DNA of 64,000 nt from assembly GCA_963849395.1 (NCBI GenBank), contig CAWKHR010000009.1, positions 55,320-119,319 on the forward strand. Direction: 5' to 3'. Numbering within the stretch: the stretch's first letter is position 1; each line of letters begins with the position of its first letter. Positions 14,599 through 62,640 of the stretch are shown piece after piece. The notes under the pieces are model-generated. The model saw only the letters and a program-made list of their open reading frames with translations. It did no database searches and was not told the origin of the DNA. A program made the position numbers and the translations under genes. This stretch comes from Candidatus Acidiferrales bacterium. Its GTDB lineage: Bacteria; Acidobacteriota; Terriglobia; Acidiferrales; UBA7541.

Positions 14599-14752
14599 GT
14601 GCCATGGCCTTTCTAGGGAGCGCGAGTACTTCCGGTTTCATTCAGAAAGATTCTGTCACTTTTTTTAAGTTCGCTGTAACTTTTTTCGGCTTTCGACAGT
14701 TTCATAGGTAGGCCAACACACGACCGATTAGCCGCCCTCCGTCAGGCTAGTC

Positions 14753-14815
14753 GGAATTCCCCGAAAGGGGAATAAGGGGAGGCGGGAAGACCTGGCCCGC
14801 CTCCTTTCTCTTTTT
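14753..14815 (+). repeat. two-hairpin plus T-tract element, copy 1 (terminator-like on + strand)
   Basis: ggaattCCCCgaaaGGGGaataagg GGAGGCGGGaagacctgGCCCGCCTCC tttctcttttt; repeated at 15377. Confidence 0.7.
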
Positions 14816-15012
14816 AGCGAGTCCCTTCCAATCCCATGCAGCGGATATGAGCGCAGAGGCTTCCGCTCCACAAGCAGCGCGGGTTTCAGTGCGATAAGCT
14901 ACTCTAACTACGAATTCAGAACCCTCGAGACTGTTGGCGCCACAATGCGACGTTGGGGCCAAGGCACCAGATCACCAATCTTTCAGTTATTTACTGGTAT
15001 ACCGAAAATAAG

Positions 15013-15309
15013 CTAAGCGAACAGTATGCGTTGACGCGGTGATGGGGTTTGAACGGAGCGGCGATTGTTACGCCGGGTAGCTGGCGCGCGTCGCCGGGTC
15101 TTGCGGGGCGTAGATTGGTCGTTCAGCGCTTCGGCGGCATGAGCCGCTACATTGGTGAGAACCAGGTCGGCGGCGGCGTTAGCCATAAATACGCGAGCGG
15201 GAATTTTGTCGACGGGTGCCTCACTGACCTGATCGAGTGCTGCCATGAGTTCAGAAACACTACTGAAGTGGCGTGTTCGTAACTCAAGAATGTCTGCCGC
15301 GATGCCCAT
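15013..15309 (-). CDS. hypothetical protein with Arg-rich C-terminal tail (98 aa)
   Basis: ATG ORF MGIAADILELRTRHFSSVSELMAALDQV.. ending ..PRKTRRRAPATRRNNRRSVQTPSPRQR; flanked by the two copies of the hairpin element. Confidence 0.45.
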   Translation of the reverse strand: MGIAADILELRTRHFSSVSELMAALDQVSEAPVDKIPARVFMANAAADLVLTNVAAHAAEALNDQSTPRKTRRRAPATRRNNRRSVQTPSPRQRILFA

Positions 15310-15376
15310 TATATTTACCTCGAAGTGAACAGCATATCATCTCTATTATTCAACGCACCTGTACGAAGGGACAGTT

Positions 15377-15427
15377 GGATTCCCCGAAAGGAGAATAAGC
15401 GGAGGCTGCCCGCCTCCTTTCTCTTTT
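15377..15427 (+). repeat. two-hairpin plus T-tract element, copy 2
   Basis: ggattCCCCgaaaGGaGaataagc GGAGGCtgcccGCCTCC tttctctttt. Confidence 0.7.
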
Positions 15428-15885
15428 GCCTTATTTACTCCTAATTCCCATCTGTCTCTGTGCTTAGAATAGTTGGATCAACTTTGCCTGGGTGTGCCAG
15501 CAAATCCCATTTGGGTGCCAGAAACTGGATGCGCGCTCCACTTCCCATCGGCCGTTTGTCGGTCCTTCCGTTTGCACTTGGGCGGTCGTAATTCTTTACA
15601 CGGGTATTTTGCGAAAATTCCCGCGGAATCTTTGGGTCAGGAGTGTCTCGGCATTTCTCTCGGTTATCCTCTGTTTCGGTGTCGTCATAACCCAAATCTT
15701 GATTTTTGGCGCCATTACGGGTATTCGAGCCGCCACCAGCGACCATGTTGTTCTCTCGATGTTGGTCTTCGAAAATCTAACTTCGCTATATCTCTTGATT
15801 TATCGCCTCAAAAATCCGACAAATGTTTCCCCAGGCAGCTCAAAGGTGCCTGTGTCAGAGTGAACGAGGTTTTGAGACGCAAAAT

Positions 15886-16152
15886 ATGAAAATGGCAGAT
15901 TTTTACCGGAAGACTGCGAATTACTGGCAAGCTGTCTGGCGTGTGGGCTTGCCCACAATAGTCATCTACAGAGCCTGCCACTTCTTGTTCTTTTGGCTCG
16001 CGGGAGGCAAATCCGCAGGGTTTTCCTATCCTTGGCGCTTTGCGGCAATCCTCGACCCACTCGCAGTTTTCATTGTGGCGAGCGTTTGGTGGAGCGCCGT
16101 GCGTTCCGTGTTTGGGAAGGTCAATCCCACCAAAACGGAACCGCCTAACTAG
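15886..16152 (+). CDS. small membrane protein (88 aa)
   Basis: From ATG 15886 MKMADFYRKTANYWQAVWRVGLPTIVIYRACHFLFFWL..AAILDPLAVFIVASVWW; two hydrophobic helices; low-G+C islet. Confidence 0.4.
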   Translation: MKMADFYRKTANYWQAVWRVGLPTIVIYRACHFLFFWLAGGKSAGFSYPWRFAAILDPLAVFIVASVWWSAVRSVFGKVNPTKTEPPN

Positions 16153-16295
16153 CATCCCGTCCGAAGGCTAGCTGCTCGGTAGTTTGGAAACAGCATGCTC
16201 TTCCTGGCCAACTCTTTCCGGCAGTGCTTTGACTTTACCGGTTAATCAGGAACTTGCATTAAATTTGAAAAACCAAAAGTTCGCTGCGTGACGAT

Positions 16296-16921
16296 ATGCT
16301 GAGACTGGACGAAGCGGTCATCGGCATTGAAGGGATTTCGCAGATGGACGGCACTGAGTTTCAGCTATCTCTGGAGCGGTTGCGGGGATGCATCCATTCT
16401 CGTGACAACGACGAGATTGAGAATGTTGTAACGGACCTAGATTTGTTCACGATTGAAGTGGAACGTTGGCCAGACGGCTTCTTCGACGGCTTAGAGGGTC
16501 TTATGAGGGACCCGCGCTTTCTCGGCCTGGCGAACTCTTGGAGACTCTTTTACTTCATCGCGAACAACTGGGAGCAGATTTCCGAACGAGAGAAGGAACG
16601 GCTACGCGAGCTACTCGGGGAGGCGTTCGACAGCTGTGGAGACTGGATGGGAGCATTCGTTGTTGGCGAAATCCTCGGAGACCACTACGCGGATGAAACA
16701 ACACTGGCAATTCTGGAACGCCTAGCGAAAACTGCGAATCTCCTTGCCCGGCAACTTCTCTTCTCCCACACGCTCTTGAACACCTCGCGAAAGCAACTGA
16801 CCGCGAATCGCTTAGGAGCCAGGCCATTCAGCAGCTTCAAAAACTAGGGAAAAGCGACTTCGTAGAAGTCCGGGATGAGGCGTCTATATCGCTAGCGAAG
16901 CTTGGCATTAAGGCCGAATGA
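16296..16921 (+). pseudogene. helical-repeat (HEAT-like) hypothetical protein, apparent frameshift near 16750-16770
   Basis: ORF 16296..16847 ends in an implausible tail. The +2 frame from about 16742 reads ..LPHALEHLAKATDRESLRSQAIQQLQKLGKSDFVEVRDEASISLAKLGIKAE* (stop 16919-16921), a coherent helical-repeat ending. Confidence 0.5.
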
Positions 16922-17002
16922 AATCTGGAACTTTTCCGTATCTAGAACTCCTTGGTCAAAACTGCGCAAGAAAGATTCCCAGTGCCTGGTAAGTCTAAAT
17001 GT

Positions 17003-17153
17003 ATAGGTCGAGGGAGGCGCGCTTGGTGTAAAAAAGCTGAACTCAGCGGAGGCTGATTCAGAACACTAAAGAGGCTCCCCCATGCAACGTATGTATTAGA
17101 TTGGACTGGATGTTCACAAGCAGAAGATCAGTTATTGCGTGAAGGTCGTGGTC
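17003..17153 (+). mobile_element. 5' remnant of the IS110-family element type found at 4059-5178
   Basis: ataggtcgagggaggcgcgcttggtgtaaaaaagctgaactcagcg..atgtattagattggactggatgttcacaag.. aligns with 4059-4210; contains an in-frame tag and ends after about 20 codons. Confidence 0.7.
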
Positions 17154-17154
17154 T

Positions 17155-17355
17155 TCATGTGCTGGTCTGTGCCCTACTCGGCTCATTAACGGAAATTACA
17201 TGTCCAGTTAGAGAACTAAGGATAAGGTATCTACCCGGCTGAGATGCTCCTAGCTTTTGCACCTGTTTACGTGCCTCATCTAGGCTTCGCGCAAACGCTA
17301 TCTTTTGTGGCTTGGAATTCTCTTCAACTTGGAAAATATCAAAGTGGGTATCCAT
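17155..17355 (-). CDS. small hypothetical protein (66 aa)
   Basis: From internal ATG 17355: MDTHFDIFQVEENSKPQKIAFARSLDEARKQVQKLGASQPGRYLILSS..; pattern resembles 17796..18002; the 148-aa extension looks non-coding. Confidence 0.4.
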   Translation of the reverse strand: MDTHFDIFQVEENSKPQKIAFARSLDEARKQVQKLGASQPGRYLILSSLTGHVISVNEPSRAQTST

Positions 17356-17795
17356 CGGTTTCTCCAGTCGTGAAGTCTGGAATGAAACCGTTCCGACGTG
17401 GATCACACTACCGGGAACCAGACGGGGGTTTCTAATTCGATTAACAGATATACGTTGTGAACAGGATTGTCCAGTGAAACAGTGTAAAAAGCGCAGGTAT
17501 CTGGTAGGACCATATACCTGTGCGTCATCGTAGCCCTTGACTGCCGCTGCCAGTCTATTTCCTGGCAAGAAACGCCGGCTGGAAGCATTTACCGACGTCA
17601 AGATTCGTGACAGTGAGACCGTACATTTTGACAGTATCCAGATGAACCACGCTTCGTTATTTTATGCGAACAAAGCTGAAAACCACTCCGGGGACGTCCT
17701 TCACTCTGTCGGCGGGCGTCCCACCTATCATAGTTAGGAGGTGGCTTCCGTTCTCGGAGTAGCAAGGTTCGTCGCGGACCCAAGGTAAGGCTCTT

Positions 17796-18002
17796 ATGAC
17801 TAAAAAGATTGATGTGCTTGAATTAATGAAAAATGGGGACGTCCTGTCGCTTGGGAAGGCAGAAAGCTTTGAAGAAGCGAAACAAGCAGCAACGATTTAC
17901 ATGAACGCGCACGTTGATAGCGGGGTGAAACGGTTCCGAGTGATTCTCACGAGACACCAACTCGCCGCTTTCTTGGACGCTGAGAAGCACAAGCCGAATT
18001 AG
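17796..18002 (+). CDS. small hypothetical protein (68 aa)
   Basis: ATG ORF MTKKIDVLELMKNGDVLSLGKAESFEEAKQAATIYM..KRFRVILT..; 5-nt gap to the next ORF. Confidence 0.5.
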   Translation: MTKKIDVLELMKNGDVLSLGKAESFEEAKQAATIYMNAHVDSGVKRFRVILTRHQLAAFLDAEKHKPN

Positions 18003-18007
18003 TTGTT

Positions 18008-18358
18008 ATGAAGCTGCGTTACGAAAAAGGCCCGATGTCGGATTCCGGACCCAGTGCCGAAGAAAAGGGCGAGGATTGCCTCCTTCTTAGCGGGAGCGTC
18101 GAGCGCGAACCGCGACCTATAGTTGTCGTTCTGAGTTGGCACAGAGCCTATGGCGAGGCTTTGCTTTATGCCCACTCAGATAGAGCGGCAACACTCTTGT
18201 CAAAAGCTGAACATCGCATCTTCGAACGGTATCTGGAAGTGGCCGCTTCCTCATCCTCACTTTCGCCCGAAGAAGACCGAGACTTGTGGAACGCAGTCAC
18301 GGCACTATCTGAGTTGAAAAAGATGCTGGCTCTCGCGCCCCATCTCCCCATCCATTAG
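18008..18358 (+). CDS. hypothetical protein (116 aa)
   Basis: ATG ORF tightly following 17796..18002 (likely operon); no family recognised. Confidence 0.5.
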   Translation: MKLRYEKGPMSDSGPSAEEKGEDCLLLSGSVEREPRPIVVVLSWHRAYGEALLYAHSDRAATLLSKAEHRIFERYLEVAASSSSLSPEEDRDLWNAVTALSELKKMLALAPHLPIH

Positions 18359-18419
18359 CATCTAGTAGCGTGATCACGAGAGAAGGATTGGTTTCCCAAA
18401 CCGCAGGAAGGCCGTATTT

Positions 18420-18626
18420 ATGAGTCTCTTTCCAAGAAAAAATCAGCCCGCTGTTTGCCGAAGTTGTGGCAGTGCCATTTATAGGTCCAAAAGAAACGGC
18501 TTCGTCGAGTCCTTACTTCATCACATTCTGTTCATTAGTCCATATCGCTGCGTGGGGTGTAACGACCGGCAGCTTCGTTTCCGCCCCGCGAACCATTCGA
18601 TACCCGGCACTAAGCACGCCGTCTAG
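18420..18626 (+). CDS. zinc-ribbon small protein (68 aa)
   Basis: CRSCGS ..(30 aa).. CVGCND, two CxxC pairs; RBS aggaagg before ATG. Confidence 0.5.
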   Translation: MSLFPRKNQPAVCRSCGSAIYRSKRNGFVESLLHHILFISPYRCVGCNDRQLRFRPANHSIPGTKHAV

Positions 18627-18950
18627 CGTTAAAGACTGTCACTGCTGAATAATTTTAGACAGCACATCGTACGCCATATGCTCCATGAACTGCGGCATCG
18701 TGAAGATTTTCGTCTTGCACGCGACACAACCGGGACACACGATTCCGCGCCGACCTTGTGCGTACCGAAGATCCCGCCGCGCAAAGACTCACGCGTCCCC
18801 AAATCCAGCCAAATTCGCGTTCTTGACTTGAACCAATCGCTGTCGCAGAATCCCGGGCACAGGTTTCCAGGTTCCTCGTTCGCCATTTGTAGGCCCTTTT
18901 CGCAGTCGCCATATACGTCCAGCCCGCCCAAAAATTAAGGAGTGAAACTC

Positions 18951-54225: not shown

Positions 54226-54326
54226 CTTAGCTTGACTTTACCCGTTGCTGCGTTTACTAGGACTTTGTGTCGCAGGAAACTCGGGCGGAAACTCGAGGAC
54301 ACGGGCGTTTTCAATTCTCGAATCTT

Positions 54327-54354
54327 TATTTTCTATTTTCTATTTTCCATCTTC
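54327..54354 (+). repeat. A/T-rich heptamer run (TATTTTC x3) ending in TTTTCCATCTTC
   Basis: tattttc tattttc tattttc catcttc; related to the TTTTCCATTTTC 12-mers at 61201-61254. Confidence 0.7.
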
Positions 54355-55583
54355 ACTGCCTCACTCAGCGCGCCAACGTCCCAACCCAAACTCATCTGCG
54401 CTTGTCGCGCTTTCGGTCTCATCCCTTCCCACGGGCGCGAGCCGAATCCGAATTTCTGCCTGATGCGCAGCACCCGCTCTGACGCCTTCTTCCGATACTC
54501 CTCCGGCGGGTAGGCATTCCTCCCGTACCACTCCTCATACTGCTTCGCCAGCTTGGGAAATTTCTCGCGCACAAATGGCAGAAACTGTTTCGCCGACGCC
54601 GGCATCAAGAACAACACGCCCGAAAAGAACCACTGCGCCCCAGCTTCCTTCGCCGCAGCAGCCACCGCTTCCAATTCCCCTTCGCCATCCGTAATTCCCG
54701 GCACCAGCGGCGACGCCGATACGCCTACATTCAATCCCGCCTCGCGCAATTCCCGCACCGCCTTCAATCGCAAATCCGGACGCGGCGCACGAGGCTCCAG
54801 CAATCGCGCCAGTCGCGGCTTCAAAGTAGTAATCGTAATGTTCAGAGACAGCGCCGACTTCCCCGCAATCACCTTTAAAATATCAATGTCGCGCACAATC
54901 TGATTCGACTTGGTAATCACCGACACGCTCAGCCCTTCGCGTTTCGCCAGCTCCTCCAAACACGCCCGCGTCACGCCATATTCCTTCTCCGCAGGCTGAT
55001 ACGGATCCGTCGCCGTCCCAATCGCAATATGCTCCGCCTCCTTGTATCCCGACGCCTTCGACTCATACGAATATTTCGCCGACACATCGCGCTGCAGCAG
55101 CGCCGCCGCATCCTGCTTCACGAAAATCTTCTTCTCGAATTCTCCGCCGTCAATTTCCATGTACTCGTGGGTGTACCGCGCGTAGCAATATTTGCAGGCG
55201 AATTCGCAGCCGCGATACGGATTAACCGTCCACTCAAACGGCACGCGCGCCGAATCGCAGCGGTTCAAGATCGATTTCACCGGCAACAAAAAATACTCTG
55301 GCTTTTCTTCCGACTTGCGCTTCGTTTCCGCCGCAGGCGATTTCGCGGCGAGGCGAGCTATGCCCACCAGTGGCGCATGAGGAGTCTGGATCGTGGGCGG
55401 GGGGCAATCCGCCGTGGGACTTTCCAGACTTCCCTTGCACCAGCCGGCTTCGCTCTGGGCAAGAGCACCGGCCTCTGGTTTTGGCTCATCAGGGCTAAAA
55501 GGTAGGAAAGAAACAGCGGGGCGTCGAACGGGGCGACGGCGCACGGTGAAACGCGACGTCGTAAGGGGTAGAACTGGGGACAT
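54333..55583 (-). CDS. radical SAM protein (PA0069/SplB-like)
   Basis: NPYRGCEFACKYCYARYTHEYM (CxxxCxxC); TIM-barrel-like remainder; N-terminal start uncertain. Confidence 0.8.
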   Translation of the reverse strand: MSPVLPLTTSRFTVRRRPVRRPAVSFLPFSPDEPKPEAGALAQSEAGWCKGSLESPTADCPPPTIQTPHAPLVGIARLAAKSPAAETKRKSEEKPEYFLLPVKSILNRCDSARVPFEWTVNPYRGCEFACKYCYARYTHEYMEIDGGEFEKKIFVKQDAAALLQRDVSAKYSYESKASGYKEAEHIAIGTATDPYQPAEKEYGVTRACLEELAKREGLSVSVITKSNQIVRDIDILKVIAGKSALSLNITITTLKPRLARLLEPRAPRPDLRLKAVRELREAGLNVGVSASPLVPGITDGEGELEAVAAAAKEAGAQWFFSGVLFLMPASAKQFLPFVREKFPKLAKQYEEWYGRNAYPPEEYRKKASERVLRIRQKFGFGSRPWEGMRPKARQAQMSLGWDVGALSEAVKMENRK

Positions 55584-55764: not shown

Positions 55765-57390
55765 GTGGCTGCTTCTTACCGCAACGCTGCCCAGATCAGC
55801 CCGCGCGCATCTCACCTGCTGGAGAAGTCGAAAGTCGTAATCATTCTGAGGACACTCTTCGTGCGCGCTGCTCTTTCAACAATTTTCATCAACTCTCGTA
55901 AGCTTCCCCGCCTCAGCAAAATTGCAGCAACCGCAGCCGCATTCGCCTTAGCACTCTCCACCGCAGCCGTAACGACCAGCGTCCTCTTCGCGCAAACGCC
56001 GACTCCCGCTCCCGCGCAATCTCCCACGCAAACACAAAAGCCGGCTCCCAAACCCGCCGCGCCCGGGGCCGCCACCACGCCCCAAATCGCCACATCTCCC
56101 GAAGTGCAAGCGCCCGCCTCGAAGCATTACCCCATCCTGGTCATCGCCCATGGCACCGAGCCATTCTGGAGTCTGCGCCTCGGCATGAAGGGTCCCGAGC
56201 GCCTCGATCGCGTCGGCTATCCGGAAATGGCGCTCGATCCCGCAGACATTATCCCCGACGATTCCGGCGGCGCCTGGACTTACCACGCCAAAGATTCCGC
56301 GGCCAACGCCGACGTCACCGTCAAACTCGCGCGCGATCCTTGCTCCGACAACATGTCCGACACCAAGTACACCTTCACCGTAGTTATCGAACATTCTGAG
56401 CTCGGCATCCTGAAAGGATGCGGCCAGAGCGAGCCCGACAAGTTCCCCGAATTCCGCAAAAAGAATCGCCTCGACGACACTGAGCCGCTGGACACCACGC
56501 CCGCCGGCAAAGACAAAGATAAGGACAAGGACAAAAAGTCCGTCCTCGATCCCATCACCAAATTTTCGCCGCCCGTCGCGGTGGCGTACATTGACGCCAC
56601 CGGCAAAATCATCGTCAGCCACGGCCAGCTCAAAAAAGTTGCTGCGCCTTCCGGCCAGGAGCCCGCGCTCTCGCACGACGGCAAAAAGCTGCTGTACACC
56701 CGCTCTGATTCCAAGACCGGCCCGGAGCGCAGCATCGTCCTCTACGATTTCGATTCCGGCCACTCCCGCGATCTGGTTACCGGCAACGCGCGCCAGGCTT
56801 TCTGGTCGCCCGACGATTCCCGCGTCGCCTTCCTGAAATTCGATACCGCCAGCAATCAATGGCAACTCTGGACGCTTCCGCTCAACGCCCCGGAAAAAGC
56901 TGCCGCGGTCGCGCCGCAAAATTTCGATGCGCTGCATGGCTGGGTTTCGCCCACCACGTTGCTGGTCACCGACAAGCAAAACGCCTACTGGCTGGGCGAC
57001 GATGGCAAGCCGCAACAAACCGTGCCGCTCAAAGATATTTACGGCTCCACGTTCGACATCATGAGCAGCGACACGATTCGCAGCCATCCGCTGAATCCCG
57101 ATTTGCTGCTGGTCTCCGCGTATTACCTCAACACGCCACCCGGCGCGCCCACCGATTCCGTCAGCCTCAACAGCACATTTTTTCTGTACGAAGTGCGTGG
57201 CAAGCGCCGCGTCATTCTCGGCCCCACCGACAGCTTCTCGCGCGATGCCGAATGGTCGCGCGACGGCTTGCAGATTTATTTCACGCGCGGCGTCCCCGGC
57301 AAAATCCCCCTGGCCATCAATCGCATCTTCTGGGACGGCTCCGTCCTCCGCCGCTACCTCCCCGGCTCCGACCTAGTCGTCGGCAAGTAA
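55765..57390 (+). CDS. secreted protein: GxEPFW-type (COG3650-like) N-terminal domain plus TolB-like propeller
   Basis: Signal-like IAATAAAFALALSTAAVTTSVLFAQ; ..VIAHGTEPFWSLRLG..; repeats ALSHDGKKLLYTR, FWSPDDSRVAFLKF, AEWSRDGLQIYFTR; start codon uncertain. Confidence 0.65.
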   Translation: MAASYRNAAQISPRASHLLEKSKVVIILRTLFVRAALSTIFINSRKLPRLSKIAATAAAFALALSTAAVTTSVLFAQTPTPAPAQSPTQTQKPAPKPAAPGAATTPQIATSPEVQAPASKHYPILVIAHGTEPFWSLRLGMKGPERLDRVGYPEMALDPADIIPDDSGGAWTYHAKDSAANADVTVKLARDPCSDNMSDTKYTFTVVIEHSELGILKGCGQSEPDKFPEFRKKNRLDDTEPLDTTPAGKDKDKDKDKKSVLDPITKFSPPVAVAYIDATGKIIVSHGQLKKVAAPSGQEPALSHDGKKLLYTRSDSKTGPERSIVLYDFDSGHSRDLVTGNARQAFWSPDDSRVAFLKFDTASNQWQLWTLPLNAPEKAAAVAPQNFDALHGWVSPTTLLVTDKQNAYWLGDDGKPQQTVPLKDIYGSTFDIMSSDTIRSHPLNPDLLLVSAYYLNTPPGAPTDSVSLNSTFFLYEVRGKRRVILGPTDSFSRDAEWSRDGLQIYFTRGVPGKIPLAINRIFWDGSVLRRYLPGSDLVVGK

Positions 57391-57450: not shown

Positions 57451-57490
57451 GGCGCAGAGCCACATTTGCGCCAGCATTCTCCTTCCCTGT

Positions 57491-57549
57491 CTCTAGCACC
57501 GGTGATTTCAACCGGTGCATGCGGGCGCTTTTTGTCCGCATGATAAACG
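57491..57549 (+). repeat. REP-D: 59-nt double-hairpin repeat, left copy
   Basis: ctctagCACCGGTgatttcaACCGGTGcaTGCGGGCgctttttGTCCGCAtgataaacg; 52/59 identical (ungapped, my count) to the reverse complement of 62463-62521. Confidence 0.85.
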
Positions 57550-57714
57550 GTTGCCGCGTCTGAAGACTAAGCGTCTCGAAAGAAATAAGGCACGGTCGAG
57601 CAGTTCGGAAGCAATTCTCGAAGTTTCGTTCATACGAAGTGGAGGAGATAACGTTATAATGCTATAAATTAACTGTTGCTGAACCACTGCTCCAGGAAAT
57701 CGGTAAATCTAGCC

Positions 57715-60700
57715 ATGAATGATGCGTTCGGATCGCAATGGAGGAAGTGGGACTTACATGTCCACACGCCAGCCTCTATGTTTCACAACTATCCCGGAGT
57801 CGATGATGATGCGAAATGGGAATCGTTCCTAGTCGACCTTGAGTCTCTCCCATCTGAGTTCAAAGTAATCGGCGTGAACGACTATATTTTTATTGAAGGA
57901 TATAAGCGACTTAAAGAAGAAAAAAGCCGAGGAAGAATACCAAATATTGAGCTGCTCCTGCCAGTGATTGAATTGAGGCTGGACAAATTTGGGGGAACTG
58001 CTTCGCACTTTAGCAAAGTAAACTTTCATGTGATCTTTTCCGAAGAAGTCGATGCGGATTTAATCAAAGACCAATTTCTCGCGGGGCTCTGGACTGAATA
58101 TATCCTAGCGCCGCACTACTTGGAGCTAAAGAAGAGGTGGAAAGCCCATCCGACAAGGGACAGTATTGCTGACCTTGGTAAGCTCATCATTGAGAGCGCT
58201 CCAGAGGCTGAGCGCGCAAAATTCAGCTCTGATCTCGAAGAAGGATTTAATAGCCTCACCTTTGCTCAAGACCGAATTGTCGCAGCCTTAGACAAGCCAT
58301 ATTTTGAAGATAAGTATTTATTCGCAGTTGGCAAGACAGAGTGGGCCAATATTAAGTGGAATGACAACTCGATTGCTGACAAGAAGAACGTCATCAACAG
58401 CGTTGATATGGTTTTCACTGCGGCAGCGACCCCTGACGGCTGTCAGAGAAGTACCGCCAGCTTGAAGCAGCAAGCGGTCAATTATCGATTGTTTGACTGC
58501 AGTGATGCTCATTGGCCCTCGAGCTCGACTGACAAGGACAGAGTGGGGAATTGCTTCACTTGGATCAAAGCTGATCCTACTTTCGCAGGCTTGAAGCACT
58601 CGCTCCTCGAGTTTGATGACCGGGTCTTTCTGGGAGAATTGCCTCCCAAACTCAAGGAAGTTCACCAAAACCAAACACACTACATAAAGTCGATTACCTT
58701 TAGGAAGCTTGCAGGGTCGCCGCTTGATGAAGCTTGGTTTGAGGGAGAAATACCCATCAACCAAGGCCTAGTAGCAATTATTGGGAACAAGGGTAGTGGC
58801 AAAAGCGCTCTTGCCGATACGATTGGGCTTCTTGGGAACTCGCACCAGGACAAGTCTTTTTCATTCCTCAGTGAGGCCCGATTCCGTGACCCCAAGGACA
58901 ACAAAGCAAGGCAATTCGAAGCATTTCTAACGTGGGAGAGCGGCCCTGGCAAAACAAAGAGCCTAGATGCCCGAGTCGGACAGCAGGAAGTCGAGCTAGT
59001 GAAATATATTCCACAAAACTTCCTTGAGCTGATTTGCAATGAGACCGAAACAAAGCGCGAGACCGATTTTGATAAAGAACTTAAGAAAGTGATTTTTTCC
59101 CATGTTCCCGAGGAAGAGCGCCTCAGCCAAGACTCCTTAGATTCACTTCTTACTTTCAAGACCGGTGAGACTTACCAATTCATCGAGGCGCTCAGAGACG
59201 ATCTCCAAAAAATCAACCTGGGAATTGTGCGCCTTGAAGAAACGCAAACGCCTGAGTACCGCCAGCAGATTCAAAACAACCTTGAAACCAAACTAGAGCA
59301 ACTGAGAGCAAACGAGAGCATAAAACCTGTCCCGGTACCACCTCCTTCCGTCGATGCGAGCGAACAGGCGACCGCTTCGCTTCTAGCAACGATCGATGGC
59401 CACAAGAAGACTTTGTCTGAATTGGCGCGCGAACTTCAAAAGGCGAGCACTGAACGCTCTGAGGTTAATAGACTCATTGGTACGGCGAACAGAGTCATCG
59501 ACCGGATAGAAAACATCCGTAAGGCGATTGAGACTTTTAGGAAAGATTCCGCTGCGGACCTTAATGCGCTCGGGTTTGTGCTTGAGGATGTAGTGCAGGT
59601 GCGGGTAGACCCTGCACCTGTAATCGAAAAACGCACCACTCTCCTTGCGGCGAAGACTTCGCTAGATGATCTGCTCAGTCCTTCTAATACGGATGGCCTG
59701 CCTACTCTCATGGTCGGACTCGATTCCGCGATTACTTCGCTGCAGTCAAAGCTCGACGAGCCGAGCCAAAGGCATCAAGCTTACCTTAAGCAACTTGAAG
59801 AATGGACTTCAAAGCAAGCGGCAATAAGCGGGGATGAGTCTACTCCTGACACTCTCATTTATTTCAGAAATTTACTTGATCAAATTGATGAAATACCACC
59901 CAAACTCACAGAGTTAAAATCTGAGAGATTGGCAAAGTCTCGCGAAATATTTCAACGGATTTCTGGCCTCGCTAATACTTACCGAGAGCTATATCGAGCA
60001 GTTAAGGAATTCATCCAAAGACATCCCATCGCGAAGGATGAATTGCAGTTAAACTTTGACGTCTCCATTATAGACACTGGTTTCGAAAATAGATTCTTCG
60101 ATCAAGTGAGTCGCGGCGTTACTGGTTCCTTCTGTGGACTTGATGAGGGCCAAAAAATGCTTCGCGATCTTCTTAAAAAGGTCGATTTTAATAAATGGGA
60201 AAACGTAAAGGGTTTCATTGAAGAAATTCTGGATTACCTAGAGTATGACCGGCGGTCCGCCGAAAATGTTCGCGTCAGAATTGAGACACTGCTGCGCAAA
60301 GGCTACGGAGTGGCCCAACTCTACGACTACATTTTTTCGTTGGACTACCTTCAACCTAAATACACCCTAAAATTGGGTGATAAAGAGCTCTCTCAACTCT
60401 CGCCCGGAGAAAAGGGTGCCCTGCTTCTCATTTTTTATTTCTTGGTAGATCGAGGCCAAATTCCTCTAGTAGTTGACCAGCCAGAAGAAAACTTAGACAA
60501 CGAAACAATGTTCAAGCTCCTAGTACCCTGCCTGAAAGAAGCCAAGAATAAGCGTCAGGTCATAATCGTGACGCACAATCCAAACCTGGCGGTCGTCTCC
60601 GACGCTGAACAAATCATCCACTCCACTTTAGACAAGTCGAATAAGAATCGATTGACGTACACACCAGGGGCGCTTGAAAATCCTGTAATCAATCGGAAGG

Positions 60701-60774
60701 TGTTGGATGTACTCGAAGGCACAAGGCCGGCCTTTGACAACAGAGCTGGAAAATATTTGGAAGAGTCCGCCTGA
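57715..60774 (+). CDS. PHP-family phosphoesterase fused to Rad50/SbcC-like coiled-coil ABC-type ATPase (1019 aa)
   Basis: ATG 57715. WRKWDLHVHTPAS, GVNDYIF, VIELRLD, VNFHVIF (PHP metal-ligand pattern). Walker A GNKGSGKS 58783-58806, about 400 aa of heptad-rich sequence, LSPGEKG 60397-60417, Walker B LVVDQPEENLD 60466-60498, VTHNP. Markedly low G+C. Confidence 0.8.
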   Translation: MNDAFGSQWRKWDLHVHTPASMFHNYPGVDDDAKWESFLVDLESLPSEFKVIGVNDYIFIEGYKRLKEEKSRGRIPNIELLLPVIELRLDKFGGTASHFSKVNFHVIFSEEVDADLIKDQFLAGLWTEYILAPHYLELKKRWKAHPTRDSIADLGKLIIESAPEAERAKFSSDLEEGFNSLTFAQDRIVAALDKPYFEDKYLFAVGKTEWANIKWNDNSIADKKNVINSVDMVFTAAATPDGCQRSTASLKQQAVNYRLFDCSDAHWPSSSTDKDRVGNCFTWIKADPTFAGLKHSLLEFDDRVFLGELPPKLKEVHQNQTHYIKSITFRKLAGSPLDEAWFEGEIPINQGLVAIIGNKGSGKSALADTIGLLGNSHQDKSFSFLSEARFRDPKDNKARQFEAFLTWESGPGKTKSLDARVGQQEVELVKYIPQNFLELICNETETKRETDFDKELKKVIFSHVPEEERLSQDSLDSLLTFKTGETYQFIEALRDDLQKINLGIVRLEETQTPEYRQQIQNNLETKLEQLRANESIKPVPVPPPSVDASEQATASLLATIDGHKKTLSELARELQKASTERSEVNRLIGTANRVIDRIENIRKAIETFRKDSAADLNALGFVLEDVVQVRVDPAPVIEKRTTLLAAKTSLDDLLSPSNTDGLPTLMVGLDSAITSLQSKLDEPSQRHQAYLKQLEEWTSKQAAISGDESTPDTLIYFRNLLDQIDEIPPKLTELKSERLAKSREIFQRISGLANTYRELYRAVKEFIQRHPIAKDELQLNFDVSIIDTGFENRFFDQVSRGVTGSFCGLDEGQKMLRDLLKKVDFNKWENVKGFIEEILDYLEYDRRSAENVRVRIETLLRKGYGVAQLYDYIFSLDYLQPKYTLKLGDKELSQLSPGEKGALLLIFYFLVDRGQIPLVVDQPEENLDNETMFKLLVPCLKEAKNKRQVIIVTHNPNLAVVSDAEQIIHSTLDKSNKNRLTYTPGALENPVINRKVLDVLEGTRPAFDNRAGKYLEESA

Positions 60775-60975
60775 CTGCACTGTTTACAGAAATCCAGGTT
60801 TCGCTCGAAGGTGCCTATAATCGGCCAGCGTCAACTTTCTGCCCTCTAGTCCAGTATTAATACTATTCCTACTCAGTTAATCTGACATCGACCCGTACAG
60901 AGAACGCCACCTTCGCTCTTCCCTTCTCGGGCCACTAAACACGTGTCTCCATTTCCGCCCTCGCTTCTCCTTCAT

Positions 60976-61009
60976 TCTCTAGCCGGTGCTTGCAACCGGC
61001 AAGACGAGC
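60976..61009 (+). repeat. REP-D, truncated third copy (same orientation as left copy)
   Basis: tctctagc-CCGGTgcttgcaACCGGcaagacgagc; shares tctctagc, ccggtg, aaccgg blocks with 57490-57520. Confidence 0.6.
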
Positions 61010-61200: not shown

Positions 61201-61254
61201 TTTTCCATTTTCAATTTTCCATTTTCGACTTTCCCAACTCGCTTTTCCATTTTC
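61201..61254 (+). repeat. three perfect TTTTCCATTTTC 12-mers
   Basis: 61201-61212, 61215-61226, 61243-61254; ends 21 nt before ATG 61275. Confidence 0.85.
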
Positions 61255-61274
61255 GCTTTTCAAAAAGGACTGCA

Positions 61275-62396
61275 ATGAAATTCCTCGACTCCGTTCGTAA
61301 CTTCGCTTTCCCCCGCTGCGCCCATCTCTCCCCCTCCGGACGCCGCTGCTCCCAACCCGTCTGCTCCTCCAATCCCACTTTCTGTTTCATCCACTCCCCC
61401 AAGCCCGACGACGACCCCGCTCCCGACCAAGCCTTCCAGGCAGAACTCGCCCAATCCGCCGCCACTCTCGATTCTCCCGCCGACGTCCGCCGCATCCTCT
61501 CCAAACTTTTCGTCGCCGTCCTCGAAGATCGCATCCCCCTCCGCAAAGCCCGTCTCCTCAACGCCATGAGTCACACCCTCCTCCGCGCCCATCGCGAAAT
61601 CGCCTACCACCAGAAACTCAAGGACCAAAATCCCTACGAAGAACAAGACATCTTCGACGTCCCCCGCCCCATCCGCGACGACCCCGACCCCGTCCCCCCA
61701 CCGCAACTCCCCGCCACCCAAAGCCACAACTCCACCTCCTCTTACGCCGCCGCCCACAACTCCGCCTCTTCTTCTTCGTTGTCATCCCGACCGGAGCACG
61801 CTTCGTGCGCAGCGGAGGGATCGTGGCAAGTTCAATGCCCCACCACGAACCCAAAGAACCAAGCAACGCCTCAATCGTCCTCCACAAAAAAGGACGCTGC
61901 CGCATACGCGGCATCCTCAGTCGAGGTTCTTCCGTCCGAACAAGCTCTCAACTCCGGCACCACTGCTGCCAACAACGCGCTCTCTCGCCCCCAAAATCCT
62001 TCTTCCACAAAAATTTGCGTCGCCGGAACGGCGGTCTCCTCAGTTGAGCCTTTTCCGTCCGAACCAGCCTGCAGCCCCACCCTCGCCGATCCCTACAAAA
62101 TTGTTGGCACCCTGCGCATGCCCAATTCTTTTTCCGCCACTCCAATTGCCGTCTCCGAAACCGGCACGTTCAGCGACCCGTCACTTGAGCCATACTCGCC
62201 AGCCTCCGCAAAAAGCGAAGCGCCCCAATCCGCTACACGTCGCGAGCCTCCACCAAATCTCTCCCACCTTCGCCACTTTTATCCCTGGGATCCCACTCTT
62301 CCTCCAGGCACGCAAGATCCCTGGTCCAACATTCCGCCCGAATACCGCCCCGACAGCCCCCGCAGCCGCCGCAGATTTCGAGGCTCCAACCGATGA
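61275..62396 (+). CDS. Cys-rich N-terminal (C-x9-C-x11-C-x2-H) protein with long Pro/Ser/Ala-rich tail
   Basis: MKFLDSVRNFAFPRCAHLSPSGRRCSQPVCSSNPTFCFIHSP.., helical segment ..VRRILSKLFVAVLEDRIPLRKARLLNAMSHTLLRAHREIAYHQKL.., then about 240 aa of low complexity that reads through a REP-B copy. True C-terminus uncertain. Confidence 0.5.
   Translation: MKFLDSVRNFAFPRCAHLSPSGRRCSQPVCSSNPTFCFIHSPKPDDDPAPDQAFQAELAQSAATLDSPADVRRILSKLFVAVLEDRIPLRKARLLNAMSHTLLRAHREIAYHQKLKDQNPYEEQDIFDVPRPIRDDPDPVPPPQLPATQSHNSTSSYAAAHNSASSSSLSSRPEHASCAAEGSWQVQCPTTNPKNQATPQSSSTKKDAAAYAASSVEVLPSEQALNSGTTAANNALSRPQNPSSTKICVAGTAVSSVEPFPSEPACSPTLADPYKIVGTLRMPNSFSATPIAVSETGTFSDPSLEPYSPASAKSEAPQSATRREPPPNLSHLRHFYPWDPTLPPGTQDPWSNIPPEYRPDSPRSRRRFRGSNR
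61779..61830 (+). repeat. REP-B element (compact form) inside ORF 61275..62396
   Basis: ttgtcatcccgaccggaGCACGcttCGTGCgcagcggagggatcgtggcaag. Confidence 0.8.
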
Positions 62397-62462: not shown

Positions 62463-62521
62463 CGTTTATTGTGCGGACACAAAACGTCCGCACGCACCGG
62501 TTGAAATCACCGGTGCTTGAG
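62463..62521 (-). repeat. REP-D: 59-nt double-hairpin repeat, right (inverted) copy
   Basis: cgtttattgTGCGGACacaaaacGTCCGCAcgCACCGGTtgaaatcACCGGTGcttgag. Confidence 0.85.
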
Positions 62522-62579
62522 AAATGTTCTTGGAGATGCGCGGAGGCGAAGATTCTAGGAAAGGAAGATAAGGGGAAAT

Positions 62580-62640
62580 CTTCCTCTGCGCTTCCTCTGC
62601 GCTTCCTCTGCGCTTCCTCTGCGTACTCTGCGCCTCTGCG
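62580..62640 (+). repeat. tandem 11-mer CTTCCTCTGCG x4 plus two degenerate units
   Basis: Perfect units at 62580, 62591, 62602, 62613; then tactctgcg, cctctgcg; a related CCTCTGCGTTA motif occurs inverted near 33525-33545. Confidence 0.85.

What the first reader, a model, noticed from the sequence alone, without database searches (positions are those of the whole stretch)
57715..60774. Stand-alone PHP-phosphoesterase / Rad50-SbcC-like ATPase fusion on a compositionally foreign insert (candidate single-gene defence, Ppl-like or new variant)
Seen directly in the 1019-aa ORF: the N-terminus carries WRKWDLHVHTPAS (DLHVHT = 57751-57768), GVNDYIF, VIELRLD and VNFHVIF. This is the His/Asp metal-ligand pattern of PHP (polymerase and histidinol phosphatase) phosphoesterases. 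Next come Walker A GNKGSGKS (58783-58806) and about 400 residues of E/K/L/Q heptad-like sequence (roughly 59.0-60.1 kb). These are followed by an ABC/SMC signature-like LSPGEKG (60397-60417), Walker B LVVDQPEENLD (60466-60498) and VTHNP. Together this is an ATPase head split by a coiled coil, as in Rad50/SbcC/RecN, with a PHP nuclease-type domain fused where SbcC would recruit SbcD. Composition is foreign: two 60-nt lines I counted inside the gene (57901-57960, 59881-59940) contain 23 and 22 G+C, against 46 in a line of the upstream gene (56041-56100). No second ORF lies in the low-G+C block, and a TATAAT hexamer sits at 57655-57660. From memory, a single-gene anti-phage system with a PHP + ATPase protein (Ppl, PplA) came out of the 2020 Gao et al. 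screen. I cannot tell without a search whether this protein belongs to it or is a distinct long-coiled-coil architecture.
Basis: partly seen in the sequence, partly recalled or inferred. Interest (0 to 1): 0.8.

Follow-up and report, generated by a model that had tools for sequence, protein, structure and literature searches.

The report
Solo Ppl-like TrlF nuclease-ATPase gene
This is an intact, horizontally acquired single gene of the widespread, already named TrlF family, which fuses a PHP-type nuclease to a Rad50/SMC-like ATPase and includes the known anti-phage protein Ppl; it is a new member of a known kind, not a new system.

Summary
A 1019-aa ORF (57715-60774, +) carries the stated motifs at the stated coordinates. 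It lies in the most GC-poor 3 kb of the window (47% against about 57%).

The protein is a full-length member of NCBIfam NF045780, "TrlF family AAA-like ATPase" (651 bits, cutoff 350). It is not Ppl in the strict sense. It scores 109 bits against a cutoff of 1000 on the NCBIfam Ppl model, and 96 bits on the PADLOC Ppl model where a real Ppl scores 1826. However, a real Ppl also passes the TrlF model (477 bits), and it shares three colinear catalytic blocks with the window protein. TrlF is therefore the umbrella family and Ppl is one clade within it.

Sequence models (Pfam, PDB profile search) miss the N-terminal domain. Its confident AlphaFold model matches only PHP enzymes: RNase AM and Pol III alpha. 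The remainder matches Rad50, MukB, SMC, JetC and LmuB heads with a coiled coil.

The gene is absent from the syntenic locus in all 14 related metagenome loci. Across 28 TrlF loci it has no conserved partner gene. Relatives sit beside integrases, restriction-modification, CBASS and GmrSD genes, on conjugative plasmids and on (pro)viral contigs.

The most likely function is a Ppl-like, nucleotide-gated DNA exonuclease acting in defence. Nobody has tested this clade experimentally.

The parts
57715..60774 (+). Complete trlF-family gene, 1019 aa plus stop. An alternative TTG start at 57676 is unlikely.
   Evidence: ORF. NCBIfam NF045780 scores 651 bits, covering residues 6-1014 against model positions 2-943 of 944. 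More than 6,300 homologs, mostly about 1017 aa. The homolog consensus starts at the ATG.
57715..58719 (+). N-terminal divergent PHP-fold phosphoesterase domain (residues 1-335). Candidate metal ligands: H15, H17, D56, E86, H105, D264, H266. Carries a helical insert of about 90 aa (roughly residues 125-215) that Ppl lacks.
   Evidence: AF2 model has pLDDT 89 and pTM 0.88. The only significant Foldseek matches are PHP enzymes: RNase AM 9etk (E 2e-5) and Pol III alpha 4iqj, plus phage Pol III alpha. Residue invariance. No Pfam or PDB sequence hit.
58738..59037 (+). ATPase head, N-lobe (roughly residues 342-441). Walker A is GNKGSGKS at 58783-58806 (K363). The Q-loop Q434 lies in the motif YIPQNF.
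   Evidence: Pfam SMC_N, AAA_15 and AAA_29. Alignments to Rad50 and ABC P-loops. Invariance.
59137..60042 (+). Helical insert (residues 475-776). Long helices 475-535 and 548-619 flank the proline-rich apex loop SIKPVPVPPPSVDAS, which has no CxxC hook. Shorter helices follow at 623-776.
   Evidence: Secondary structure and pLDDT of the full-length AF2 model. The full-length model matches Rad50, MukB, Smc, JetC and LmuB heads with coiled coil at E 5e-10 to 1e-5. The tertiary arrangement was not inspected.
60049..60771 (+). ATPase head, C-lobe (residues 779-1019). Signature LSPGEKG at 60397-60417. Walker B LVVDQPEENLD at 60466-60498, where Q922 occupies the position of the catalytic Glu. H-loop VTHNP (H954). 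Conserved C-terminal motif EGTxPAFxNR.
   Evidence: Pfam AAA_21 and SMC_N. Alignments to Rad50 and ABC transporters show 'vvdqpe' against 'lDEPt'. Invariance. 32% identity to the Ppl C-terminus, E 1e-15.
57463..57549 (+). Left border element: a REP- or terminator-like tandem double hairpin, 100 nt after the stop codon of the upstream gene.
   Evidence: Fold energy -28.4 kcal/mol, z -4.5.
60950..60999 (+). Right border element: a partial direct copy (5' part plus first hairpin) of the left element, located where GC returns to the host level.
   Evidence: Local alignment score 42 against 19 +/- 2.3 for shuffles, maximum 31. Sequence.
62463..62522 (-). Third, inverted copy of the double-hairpin element (88% identical to the left copy), located after the stop codon of ORF 61275-62396. 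Probably a host repeat rather than part of the gene cassette.
   Evidence: Fold energy -30.2 kcal/mol, z -5.0.

Best explanation
The gene encodes a stand-alone TrlF-family protein. An N-terminal, divergent PHP-fold metal-dependent phosphoesterase is fused to an SMC/Rad50-like ABC nucleotide-binding head, and that head is split by a short coiled coil plus a helical domain.

The gene was acquired horizontally as a single-gene cassette. It inserted into the intergenic region downstream of a conserved radical-SAM / beta-propeller gene pair.

By homology with its characterised relative Ppl, the most likely mechanism runs as follows:
1. The ABC head, and possibly the PHP site, binds NTPs and keeps the enzyme off in a healthy cell.
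2. When an invading phage or other mobile DNA depletes nucleotides and exposes DNA ends, the PHP domain acts as an exonuclease on that DNA and halts the infection.

**Shown here:** family membership, domain folds, conserved catalytic residues, solo organisation, foreign origin, and the association of relatives with defence islands and mobile elements.

**Inferred:** nuclease activity, the substrate, NTP gating, and the defence phenotype.
For: **Family**
- NF045780 TrlF scores 651 bits (cutoff 350) over the full length.
- Real Ppl also passes this model at 477 bits.
- Real Ppl shares three colinear blocks with the window protein: the HxH motif, SDAH through Walker A (32% identity, E 2e-11), and the signature / Walker B / H-loop / C-terminus region (32% identity, E 1e-15).

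**Folds**
- The N-domain model (pLDDT 89) matches only PHP enzymes in PDB and BFVD.
- The full-length model (pLDDT 84) matches Rad50, MukB, Smc, JetC and LmuB.

**Catalytic residues**
- Invariant in 45 homologs: D13, H17, D56, E86, H105, D264, H266, K363, Q434, S896, D921, H954.
- Q922 replaces the Walker B catalytic Glu in all 45 homologs and in Ppl. This fits nucleotide sensing rather than motor activity.

**Foreign origin**
- Lowest GC in the window.
- TrlF is absent downstream of the orthologous flanking gene in all 14 related loci, although radical-SAM synteny is conserved.
- Nucleotide similarity to homolog loci stops at the ORF ends.
- Homologs are also GC-poor relative to their own flanks.

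**Context of relatives**
- Integrase, GmrSD and PycTM.
- Type I R-M, TIR, CD-NTase and Cap15.
- Integrases or a serine recombinase.
- 1148 plasmid records carry a hit, 825 of them conjugative.
- An Abi-family neighbour.
- 12 (pro)viral contigs.
- No conserved partner in 28 loci.

**Ppl mechanism from the literature**
- PMC12904381.
- The citation of Xu et al., Mol Cell 2026, in PMC13434339.
Against: - No member of the window's clade has been tested for defence. No held paper contains both 'TrlF' and 'phage'.
- The only experimental context for the TrlF name is the Photorhabdus temperature-restriction operon. There, mutations mapped to trlG and not to trlF.
- Similarity to Ppl is limited to the catalytic cores, and hhalign aligned only the C-terminal block.
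- PHP motif II reads D-Y in this clade but D-H in Ppl, and this clade's barrel carries an extra helical insert of about 90 aa. Substrate or polarity could therefore differ.
- The best structural match, RNase AM, is an RNA exonuclease, and the TM-scores are modest at 0.40-0.46.
- Two of the closest relatives sit among housekeeping genes with no defence neighbours.
- No convincing promoter was found.
Confidence: 0.62

Rival explanations
1. It is Ppl itself: an ortholog of the E. coli anti-phage protein from the Gao et al. 2020 screen, with the same trigger and substrate.
For: Same domain order and homologous catalytic cores. The best PADLOC hit is Ppl at E 4e-28.
Against: - NCBIfam Ppl model: 109 bits against a cutoff of 1000.
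- PADLOC Ppl model: 96 bits in fragments, against 1826 bits full length for a real Ppl.
- Identity is about 32% and only within conserved blocks.
- Motif II and the PHP insert differ.
Confidence: 0.03
2. It is a mobile-element competition or maintenance factor rather than a host anti-phage gene. It would be carried by plasmids, prophages and integrative elements to exclude or degrade rival plasmids and elements, or to stabilise the carrier.
For: - TrlF-family genes are common on plasmids: 1148 records, 825 of them conjugative.
- They often sit in the maintenance region beside parM, ccdAB or vapB.
- They occur on (pro)viral contigs and next to integrases or recombinases.
- SMC-like relatives such as Wadjet and Lamassu target plasmids; JetC and LmuB were among the fold hits.
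Against: In the window the gene is a solo chromosomal insert with no integrase, replication or transfer genes nearby. Ppl protects against phages (PMC11482910). The two roles are not mutually exclusive.
Confidence: 0.2
3. It is one component of a multi-gene TRL-type system (TrlR-TrlF-TrlG, as in Photorhabdus). On its own here it would be inactive, or a remnant.
For: The family name comes from the trlR-trlF-trlG operon, which causes temperature-dependent growth arrest. One close homolog has a small upstream ORF with a weak RHH/CopG-like signal.
Against: - No TrlG-like (AlbA_2 + HATPase_c_4) or TrlR-like ORF lies next to the window gene.
- No neighbour family recurs in more than 2 of 28 TrlF loci.
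- The gene is full length with every catalytic motif intact.
- Ppl works as a single gene.
Confidence: 0.07
4. It is a housekeeping DNA-repair protein: a fused analogue of SbcCD or Mre11-Rad50 in which PHP replaces the Mre11/SbcD nuclease.
For: The top fold matches are Rad50, MukB and SMC. Some databases label homologs 'DNA repair protein' or 'DNA repair ATPase'.
Against: - Absent from the syntenic locus in relatives, and of foreign composition.
- Patchy distribution linked to mobile elements and defence islands.
- Short coiled coil without a zinc hook.
- Gln at the catalytic Glu position of Walker B.
Confidence: 0.05

Closest known systems
TrlF family AAA-like ATPase (NCBIfam NF045780), named after TrlF of the Photorhabdus laumondii temperature restriction locus (Hapeshi et al., bioRxiv 10.1101/2020.06.02.129163 / PMC7554251)
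   Same: Full-length match well above the curated cutoff (651 against 350 bits). Same length class of about 1017 aa as thousands of homologs. NCBI's pipeline annotates the same protein type on many plasmids.
   Different: The Photorhabdus gene sits in a trlR-trlF-trlG operon. The window gene is solo, as in all 28 loci examined. No biochemical function has been shown for any protein called TrlF.
Ppl, the single-gene anti-phage system (Gao et al. 2020 screen; mechanism in Xu et al., Mol Cell 2026, doi 10.1016/j.molcel.2025.11.011, known here only through citing papers PMC12904381 and PMC13434339)
   Same: - Single gene with PHP domain, then Walker A, then a long helical insert, then signature / Walker B / H-loop.
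- Shared motifs: GSxWxKxDxHxHTPAS, SDAH, SPGxKG, DQPExxLD, and a conserved C-terminal tail.
- Ppl also passes the TrlF model.
- Both carry Gln at the Walker B catalytic position.
   Different: - Fails both Ppl models by a wide margin.
- 1019 aa against 891 aa.
- A helical insert of about 90 aa in the PHP barrel, and a head insert about 55 aa longer.
- PHP motif II is D-Y instead of D-H.
- Ppl is mainly on enterobacterial plasmids, whereas the window clade spans many phyla in soil metagenomes.
Rad50/SbcC and SMC-like defence ATPases (JetC of Wadjet, LmuB of Lamassu)
   Same: ABC head split by an antiparallel helical insert. These are the best fold matches for the ATPase part. Walker A, Q-loop, signature, Walker B, D-loop and H-loop are all recognisable.
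   Different: - The nuclease is fused in cis and is of the PHP type, not Mre11/SbcD, Toprim JetD or LmuA.
- There are no kleisin or accessory partner genes.
- The coiled coil is short, about 60-70 residues per arm, with no CxxC hook.
- The catalytic Glu is replaced by Gln.
PHP-family exonucleases (RNase AM/YciV, the Pol III alpha PHP domain, the PolX PHP domain)
   Same: The only significant fold matches for residues 1-335. The HxH, E, H and DxH ligand pattern is conserved.
   Different: Too divergent for Pfam or PDB sequence profiles to detect. TM-score is only 0.40-0.46. Motif II His is replaced by Tyr. There is a large helical insert, and the domain is fused to an ABC ATPase.

Membership tests
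TrlF family AAA-like ATPase (NCBIfam NF045780) | Whole-protein score above the curated cutoff of 350 bits, with end-to-end coverage of the model | tested here: met
   651.2 bits, E 4e-195, residues 6-1014 against model positions 2-943 of 944.
TrlF family AAA-like ATPase (NCBIfam NF045780) | Operon with trlR and trlG, as in the name-giving Photorhabdus locus | tested here: not met
   No such neighbours in the window or in 28 loci. This feature belongs to the Photorhabdus locus. It is not part of the protein-family model, so it does not block family membership.
Ppl anti-phage protein (NCBIfam NF042955 / PADLOC PDLC02208) | Score above the curated cutoff of 1000 bits, with a full-length match to the Ppl model | tested here: not met
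   NCBIfam: 109 bits in 2 stretches. PADLOC: 95.9 bits in 3 stretches. A real Ppl scores 1330 and 1826 bits, full length.
Ppl anti-phage protein (NCBIfam NF042955 / PADLOC PDLC02208) | Single-gene architecture: an N-terminal PHP nuclease fused to a C-terminal NTPase | tested here: met
   Colinear homologous blocks, the fold results and the solo gene organisation.
Ppl anti-phage protein (NCBIfam NF042955 / PADLOC PDLC02208) | ssDNA 3'-5' exonuclease activity inhibited by NTPs and triggered by 3'-OH overhangs, with phage protection | not testable with these tools
   This is a biochemical and phenotypic property, known for E. coli Ppl only from the literature.
PHP (polymerase and histidinol phosphatase) superfamily | Match to the Pfam PHP sequence models | tested here: not met
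   No Pfam family hit residues 1-335 even at E <= 10. The family profile found no PHP chain in PDB.
PHP (polymerase and histidinol phosphatase) superfamily | Distorted (beta-alpha)7 barrel fold similar to known PHP domains | tested here: met
   The model has pLDDT 89 and pTM 0.88. The only significant matches are RNase AM (E 2e-5, prob 1.0) and Pol III alpha (prob 0.96) in PDB, and five phage Pol III alpha proteins in BFVD. TM-scores are modest at 0.35-0.46.
PHP (polymerase and histidinol phosphatase) superfamily | Conserved metal-ligand motifs: HxH, motif II His, Glu, His, His and DxH | tested here: inconclusive
   H15 (His in 40 of 45, Gln in 5), H17, E86, H105, D264 and H266 are conserved. 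The motif II His is replaced by an invariant Tyr57 next to the invariant D56. No beta5 His could be assigned without coordinates.
Rad50/SbcC | ABC head split by a long antiparallel coiled coil with a CxxC zinc hook at the apex | tested here: not met
   The head and helical insert are present. However, each arm is only about 60-70 residues, and the apex loop SIKPVPVPPPSVDAS has no Cys.
Rad50/SbcC | Adjacent Mre11/SbcD phosphoesterase partner gene | tested here: not met
   The neighbours are a PD40 beta-propeller protein, a radical-SAM enzyme, a P/S-rich ORF and a MliC/YscW lipoprotein.
Rad50/SbcC | Catalytic Glu immediately after the Walker B Asp | tested here: not met
   The sequence is D921-Q922-P-E. 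Q922 aligns with the Rad50 and ABC catalytic Glu and is invariant in 45 of 45 homologs.

The most novel reading that the evidence does not exclude
The long-form TrlF clade to which this gene belongs may be functionally distinct from Ppl, not merely a divergent copy of it.

- The clade has about 1017-aa proteins, a D-Y motif II, and a helical insert of about 90 aa in the PHP barrel.
- It is far more widespread than Ppl.
- It could have a different substrate or polarity. RNA is one possibility, as in RNase AM, its best structural match.
- It could also respond to a different trigger.
- In addition, it may spread as a naked single-gene cassette by recombination at REP-like hairpin repeats rather than on a recognisable mobile element.
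Probability: 0.2. Interest if true: 0.55.

Novelty: new member of a known kind. Interest (0 to 1): 0.3.

Why it matters
**Limited significance for this locus.** The gene adds one more member to a family that NCBI already names and annotates. The family's Ppl clade is a validated, mechanistically studied single-gene anti-phage system.

**What is useful more generally**
1. "TrlF family" and "Ppl" are one superfamily. Ppl passes the TrlF model. Current defence-system detectors, whose Ppl models are narrow, therefore miss the much larger TrlF radiation. That radiation has more than 6,000 homologs at E <= 1e-10 (clusters at 90% identity). About 2,500 representative clusters (at 50% identity) carry the N-domain, across many phyla, plasmids and prophages.
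2. The whole superfamily carries a natural Glu-to-Gln change at the Walker B catalytic position. This fits the reported role of the ATPase head as a nucleotide sensor.
3. The long-form clade differs from Ppl in the PHP active-site region, so it is worth testing experimentally.

Tried and rejected
**Searches that gave little or nothing**
- Pfam on the full protein and on residues 1-335 alone found no PHP hit.
- Searching PDB by sequence and by family profile found only ABC, Rad50 and AriA P-loop and signature regions, no PHP domain and no Ppl structure.
- Foldseek with the full-length model was dominated by SMC and Rad50 and masked the N-domain. I solved this by modelling residues 1-335 separately.
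- The search for related loci on reference genomes with the single protein returned only 2 loci, and the window's own genome was not found. I used exact-protein look-ups, plasmid records and IMG/VR instead.
- The Ppl primary paper (Mol Cell 2026) is not held. The mechanism is taken from citing papers only.
- Literature searches for TrlF combined with ATPase or phage found nothing relevant. The name was traced through 'trlG'.
- PHROGs gave no family.
- Rfam and tRNA scans found nothing near the locus.

**Ideas rejected**
- A TrlR-like small ORF upstream. ORF 57515-57667 has no family hit, overlaps the hairpin repeat, and resembles none of the homologs' upstream ORFs.
- An integrase- or tRNA-associated island. 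There is no integrase and no tRNA nearby.
- rRNA as the explanation for the second low-GC stretch at 14.6-18.9 kb. There is no Rfam hit.
- The hairpin border repeat as a genome-wide REP family. The window holds only three copies, and none was found at the empty sites of relatives, so its role stays open.


Full report
**1. The observation**

The ORF is real. It runs from 57715 (ATG; an upstream TTG lies at 57676) to 60774 on the + strand and encodes 1019 aa. Homologs begin MNDPRGSxWRKWDLHVHTP, which supports the ATG start.

- DLHVHT at 57751-57768
- Walker A GNKGSGKS at 58783-58806
- LSPGEKG at 60397-60417
- LVVDQPEENLD at 60466-60498
- TATAAT at 57655-57660
- G+C counts of 23, 22 and 46 in the three 60-nt lines

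On composition, the ORF is 47.0% GC with GC3 of 50%. The five surrounding genes are 57-61% GC with GC3 of 62-75%. This is the lowest 3-kb stretch of the 64-kb window; the rest averages 56.7 +/- 2.4% with a minimum of 50.2%.

No credible second gene lies in the block. The TATAAT has no usable -35 element, and promoter-like sites are no more frequent than in shuffles.

**2. What the protein is**

NCBIfam gives an end-to-end match to NF045780, "TrlF family AAA-like ATPase": 651 bits against a cutoff of 350, E 4e-195.

Pfam sees only the ATPase: SMC_N just above threshold, AAA_21, and AAA_15 below threshold. PADLOC's best hit is Ppl, at only 96 bits in three fragments.

The name TrlF comes from the temperature restriction locus of Photorhabdus laumondii. 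That locus is a trlR-trlF-trlG operon whose deletion, or trlG point mutations, allow growth at 36 C. No mutation mapped to trlF, and its function was left open (bioRxiv 10.1101/2020.06.02.129163, also PMC7554251).

**3. Relationship to Ppl**

I retrieved a bona fide Ppl (WP_015059139.1, 891 aa, on an E. coli IncF plasmid). BLASTP against the window protein gives three colinear significant blocks:
- residues 6-29, the GSxWxKxDxHxHTPAS motif
- residues 263-372, from SDAH through Walker A (32% identity, E 2e-11)
- residues 877-1015, covering the signature, Walker B, H-loop and C-terminal tail (32% identity, E 1e-15)

Scores on the curated models separate the two proteins clearly:

| Model | Real Ppl | Window protein | Curated cutoff |
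|---|---|---|---|
| NCBIfam Ppl (NF042955) | 1330 bits | 109 bits | 1000 |
| NCBIfam TrlF (NF045780) | 477 bits, full length | 651 bits, full length | 350 |
| PADLOC Ppl (PDLC02208) | 1826 bits, full length | 96 bits, fragments | not given |

Other TrlF-annotated proteins score 85-123 bits on the PADLOC Ppl model.

The TrlF model is therefore an umbrella that contains Ppl as a narrow clade. The window protein lies inside the umbrella and outside the Ppl clade.

The two proteins differ in size by modest amounts:
- The PHP part is about 54 aa longer in the window protein. A helical insert of about 90 aa at roughly residues 125-215 is missing from Ppl.
- The Walker A-to-signature insert is about 55 aa longer in the window protein.

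The "long coiled coil" is therefore not a distinguishing architecture.

**4. Domain folds**

- **Full-length model.** pLDDT 84, pTM 0.68. It matches Rad50, MukB, the Smc head with coiled coil, JetC and LmuB at E 5e-10 to 1e-5.
- **N-terminal 335 residues by sequence.** Pfam finds nothing even at E <= 10. A 45-sequence family profile finds no PHP chain in PDB.
- **N-terminal 335 residues by fold.** Modelled alone, pLDDT is 89 and pTM 0.88. The only significant PDB matches are V. cholerae RNase AM, a PHP-family exonuclease (E 2e-5, prob 1.0, TM 0.40-0.46), and the PHP domain of Pol III alpha (prob 0.96). In the viral library the top five hits are all phage Pol III alpha subunits.

The domain is strongly divergent.

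Residues conserved across 45 homologs, and largely across the umbrella family including Ppl, are D13, H15 (His in 40, Gln in 5), H17, D56, E86, H105 and S263-D264-x-H266.

Two details stand out:
- The canonical motif II "DH" is an invariant "DY" in the window's clade. Ppl and the Staphylococcus protein keep "DH", and the pMAR2 protein has "NH".
- In Walker B (VVDQPEENLD), Q922 occupies the position of the catalytic Glu of Rad50 and ABC transporters (alignments). It is invariant in 45 of 45 homologs and is also present in Ppl as LLLDQPEDDLD. In ABC ATPases an engineered E-to-Q change at this position is known to trap the nucleotide-bound state (established knowledge). A natural Gln fits the reported role of Ppl's NTPase domain as an inhibitory NTP sensor. 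This last step is an inference.

The helical insert has two long helices, 475-535 and 548-619, around a low-confidence proline-rich loop with no cysteines. Shorter helices follow to residue 776. The coiled coil is therefore short and has no Rad50 zinc hook.

**5. Family size and spread**

- More than 6,300 proteins match at E <= 1e-10 in the word-indexed search, which is capped. Most are about 1017 aa and about 50% identical across phyla. The closest is 68% identical.
- An exhaustive HMMER search with the N-domain alone, against 1.84 billion representatives, finds 2,493 clusters at E <= 1e-3 and 422 at E <= 1e-30. Most of the listed hits are roughly 900-1,030 aa long.
- 1,148 plasmid records have a hit, 825 of them conjugative. 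Many are annotated TrlF, including pMAR2 of E. coli E2348/69 and Klebsiella IncF plasmids.
- Twelve IMG/VR (pro)viral contigs carry full-length relatives.

**6. Stand-alone and foreign**

Nucleotide similarity to the nearest homolog loci stops at the ORF ends, 57730-60755.

No TrlR- or TrlG-like ORF flanks the gene. The neighbours are a radical-SAM enzyme, a PD40 beta-propeller protein, a P/S-rich ORF and a MliC/YscW lipoprotein.

I clustered all ORFs lying within 3 kb of the TrlF gene in 28 loci. No neighbour family occurs in more than two loci, and those that do are a serine recombinase and IS66 genes.

Fourteen metagenome loci carry an ortholog of the upstream gene at 48-66% identity. Synteny with the radical-SAM gene is conserved, and none has TrlF downstream. 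In L024 the homolog of the 62.7-kb gene follows directly, and in L015 it follows after 2.6 kb.

Homologs in other genomes are likewise poorer in GC than their flanks, by 3-14 points in the window's clade.

Contexts of clade members:

| Locus | Neighbours |
|---|---|
| L008 | integrase, GmrSD, PycTM, deaminase, Lit-like peptidase |
| L030 | Type I R-M, TIR, CD-NTase, Cap15, NucS |
| L032/L033 | integrases on both sides |
| L034 | serine recombinase |
| L003, L006, L031 | housekeeping surroundings |

**7. Borders**

A tandem double-hairpin element lies 100 nt after the upstream gene's stop codon, at 57490-57549 (folding energy -28 kcal/mol, z -4.5). It recurs inverted at 62463-62522 at 88% identity.

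Its 5' part plus first hairpin recurs in direct orientation at 60950-60999, exactly where GC returns to the host level. The local alignment of 57463-57515 against 60950-60999 scores 42, against 19 +/- 2.3 for shuffles with a maximum of 31.

The low-GC block is therefore bracketed by imperfect direct repeats of about 50 nt. Whether these mark the recombination site or are simply host terminator- or REP-like repeats is unresolved. There are no other copies in the window and none at the empty sites of relatives.

**8. Mechanism**

The best-supported reading is a Ppl-like, single-protein defence enzyme. Citing literature describes E. coli Ppl as an ssDNA 3'-5' exonuclease that NTPs inhibit by binding both the PHP and NTPase domains. 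Nucleotide depletion together with 3'-OH ends made by phage homing endonucleases activates it (PMC12904381; Xu et al., Mol Cell 2026, cited in PMC13434339).

| Status | Items |
|---|---|
| Shown here | homology, fold, conserved active-site and nucleotide-binding residues, solo organisation, horizontal origin, defence and mobile-element context |
| Inferred | nuclease activity, substrate, NTP gating, phenotype |

My confidence differs by claim:
- About 0.97 for family assignment.
- About 0.65 for a defence or mobile-element-conflict role.
- About 0.45 for the specific Ppl-type mechanism.

The rivals I considered are strict Ppl orthology, a mobile-element competition factor, a component of a TRL-type operon, and a housekeeping repair protein. 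They are weighed in the rival explanations section of this report.

**9. Verdict**

This is a correct and careful observation of an ordinary but experimentally untested member of a known, named superfamily. It is a new member of a known kind, of modest interest.

Noticed in passing
window 14600-18900: A second lower-GC stretch (47-53% against about 57-62% in its flanks) that is gene-poor. It has no ORF of 200 aa or more, only small ORFs of up to 183 aa (for example 16296-16847 +, 17155-17601 -, 18008-18358 +), and no Rfam hit. It may be another horizontally acquired or non-coding block.
   Followed up: partly
window 57490-57549 and 62463-62522 (inverted), with a partial direct copy at 60950-60999: A REP- or terminator-like tandem double-hairpin element of 60 nt at 88% identity (fold z -4.5 and -5.0), placed just after stop codons. 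The window holds only three copies, all around the trlF insert. The left and right copies bracket the low-GC block as imperfect direct repeats of about 50 nt.
   Followed up: partly
window 61202-61257 and 54309-54357: Short T-rich direct repeats (TTTCCATTTTC-like units at 14-nt or 21-nt spacing) lie in intergenic DNA at two sites: just upstream of ORF 61275-62396, and beside the 3' end of the radical-SAM gene (54333-55583, minus strand). They could be a shared regulatory or repeat motif.
   Followed up: no
window 62580-62623: Perfect tandem repeat of the 11-nt unit CTTCCTCTGCG, four units in all, in the intergenic region downstream of ORF 61275-62396.
   Followed up: no
window 61275-62396 (+): A 373-aa Pro/Ser-rich, low-complexity ORF of host-like GC (61%) with no Pfam hit. 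tblastn found no match in the related loci, so it may be a lineage-specific gene or not a real gene. It lies between the trlF insert and the inverted copy of the hairpin element.
   Followed up: partly
window 60466-60498 (Walker B); Ppl at L027:2739-5414: The whole TrlF/Ppl superfamily has Gln (D-Q-P-E) where Rad50 and ABC ATPases have the catalytic Glu. It is invariant in 45 of 45 homologs and present in Ppl. This natural 'EQ' state suggests nucleotide sensing rather than turnover.
   Followed up: partly
L006:7676-7891 (locus of the 64%-identical homolog P0010): A 71-aa ORF directly upstream of the homolog has a weak CopG/ribbon-helix-helix signal (E 5e-5, below the Pfam cutoff). It may be a TrlR-like regulator. 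Nothing comparable is present in the window.
   Followed up: partly
L029:3787-6408 (E. coli E2348/69 plasmid pMAR2) and L028:4983-7787 (K. pneumoniae IncFII plasmid): Divergent TrlF-family genes of 873-934 aa are common in the maintenance regions of enterobacterial conjugative plasmids: between ccdAB and vapB in pMAR2, and beside an Abi-family gene in the Klebsiella plasmid. The pMAR2 protein's N-terminus also hits the PADLOC candidate PDC-M49A (E 9e-18).
   Followed up: partly
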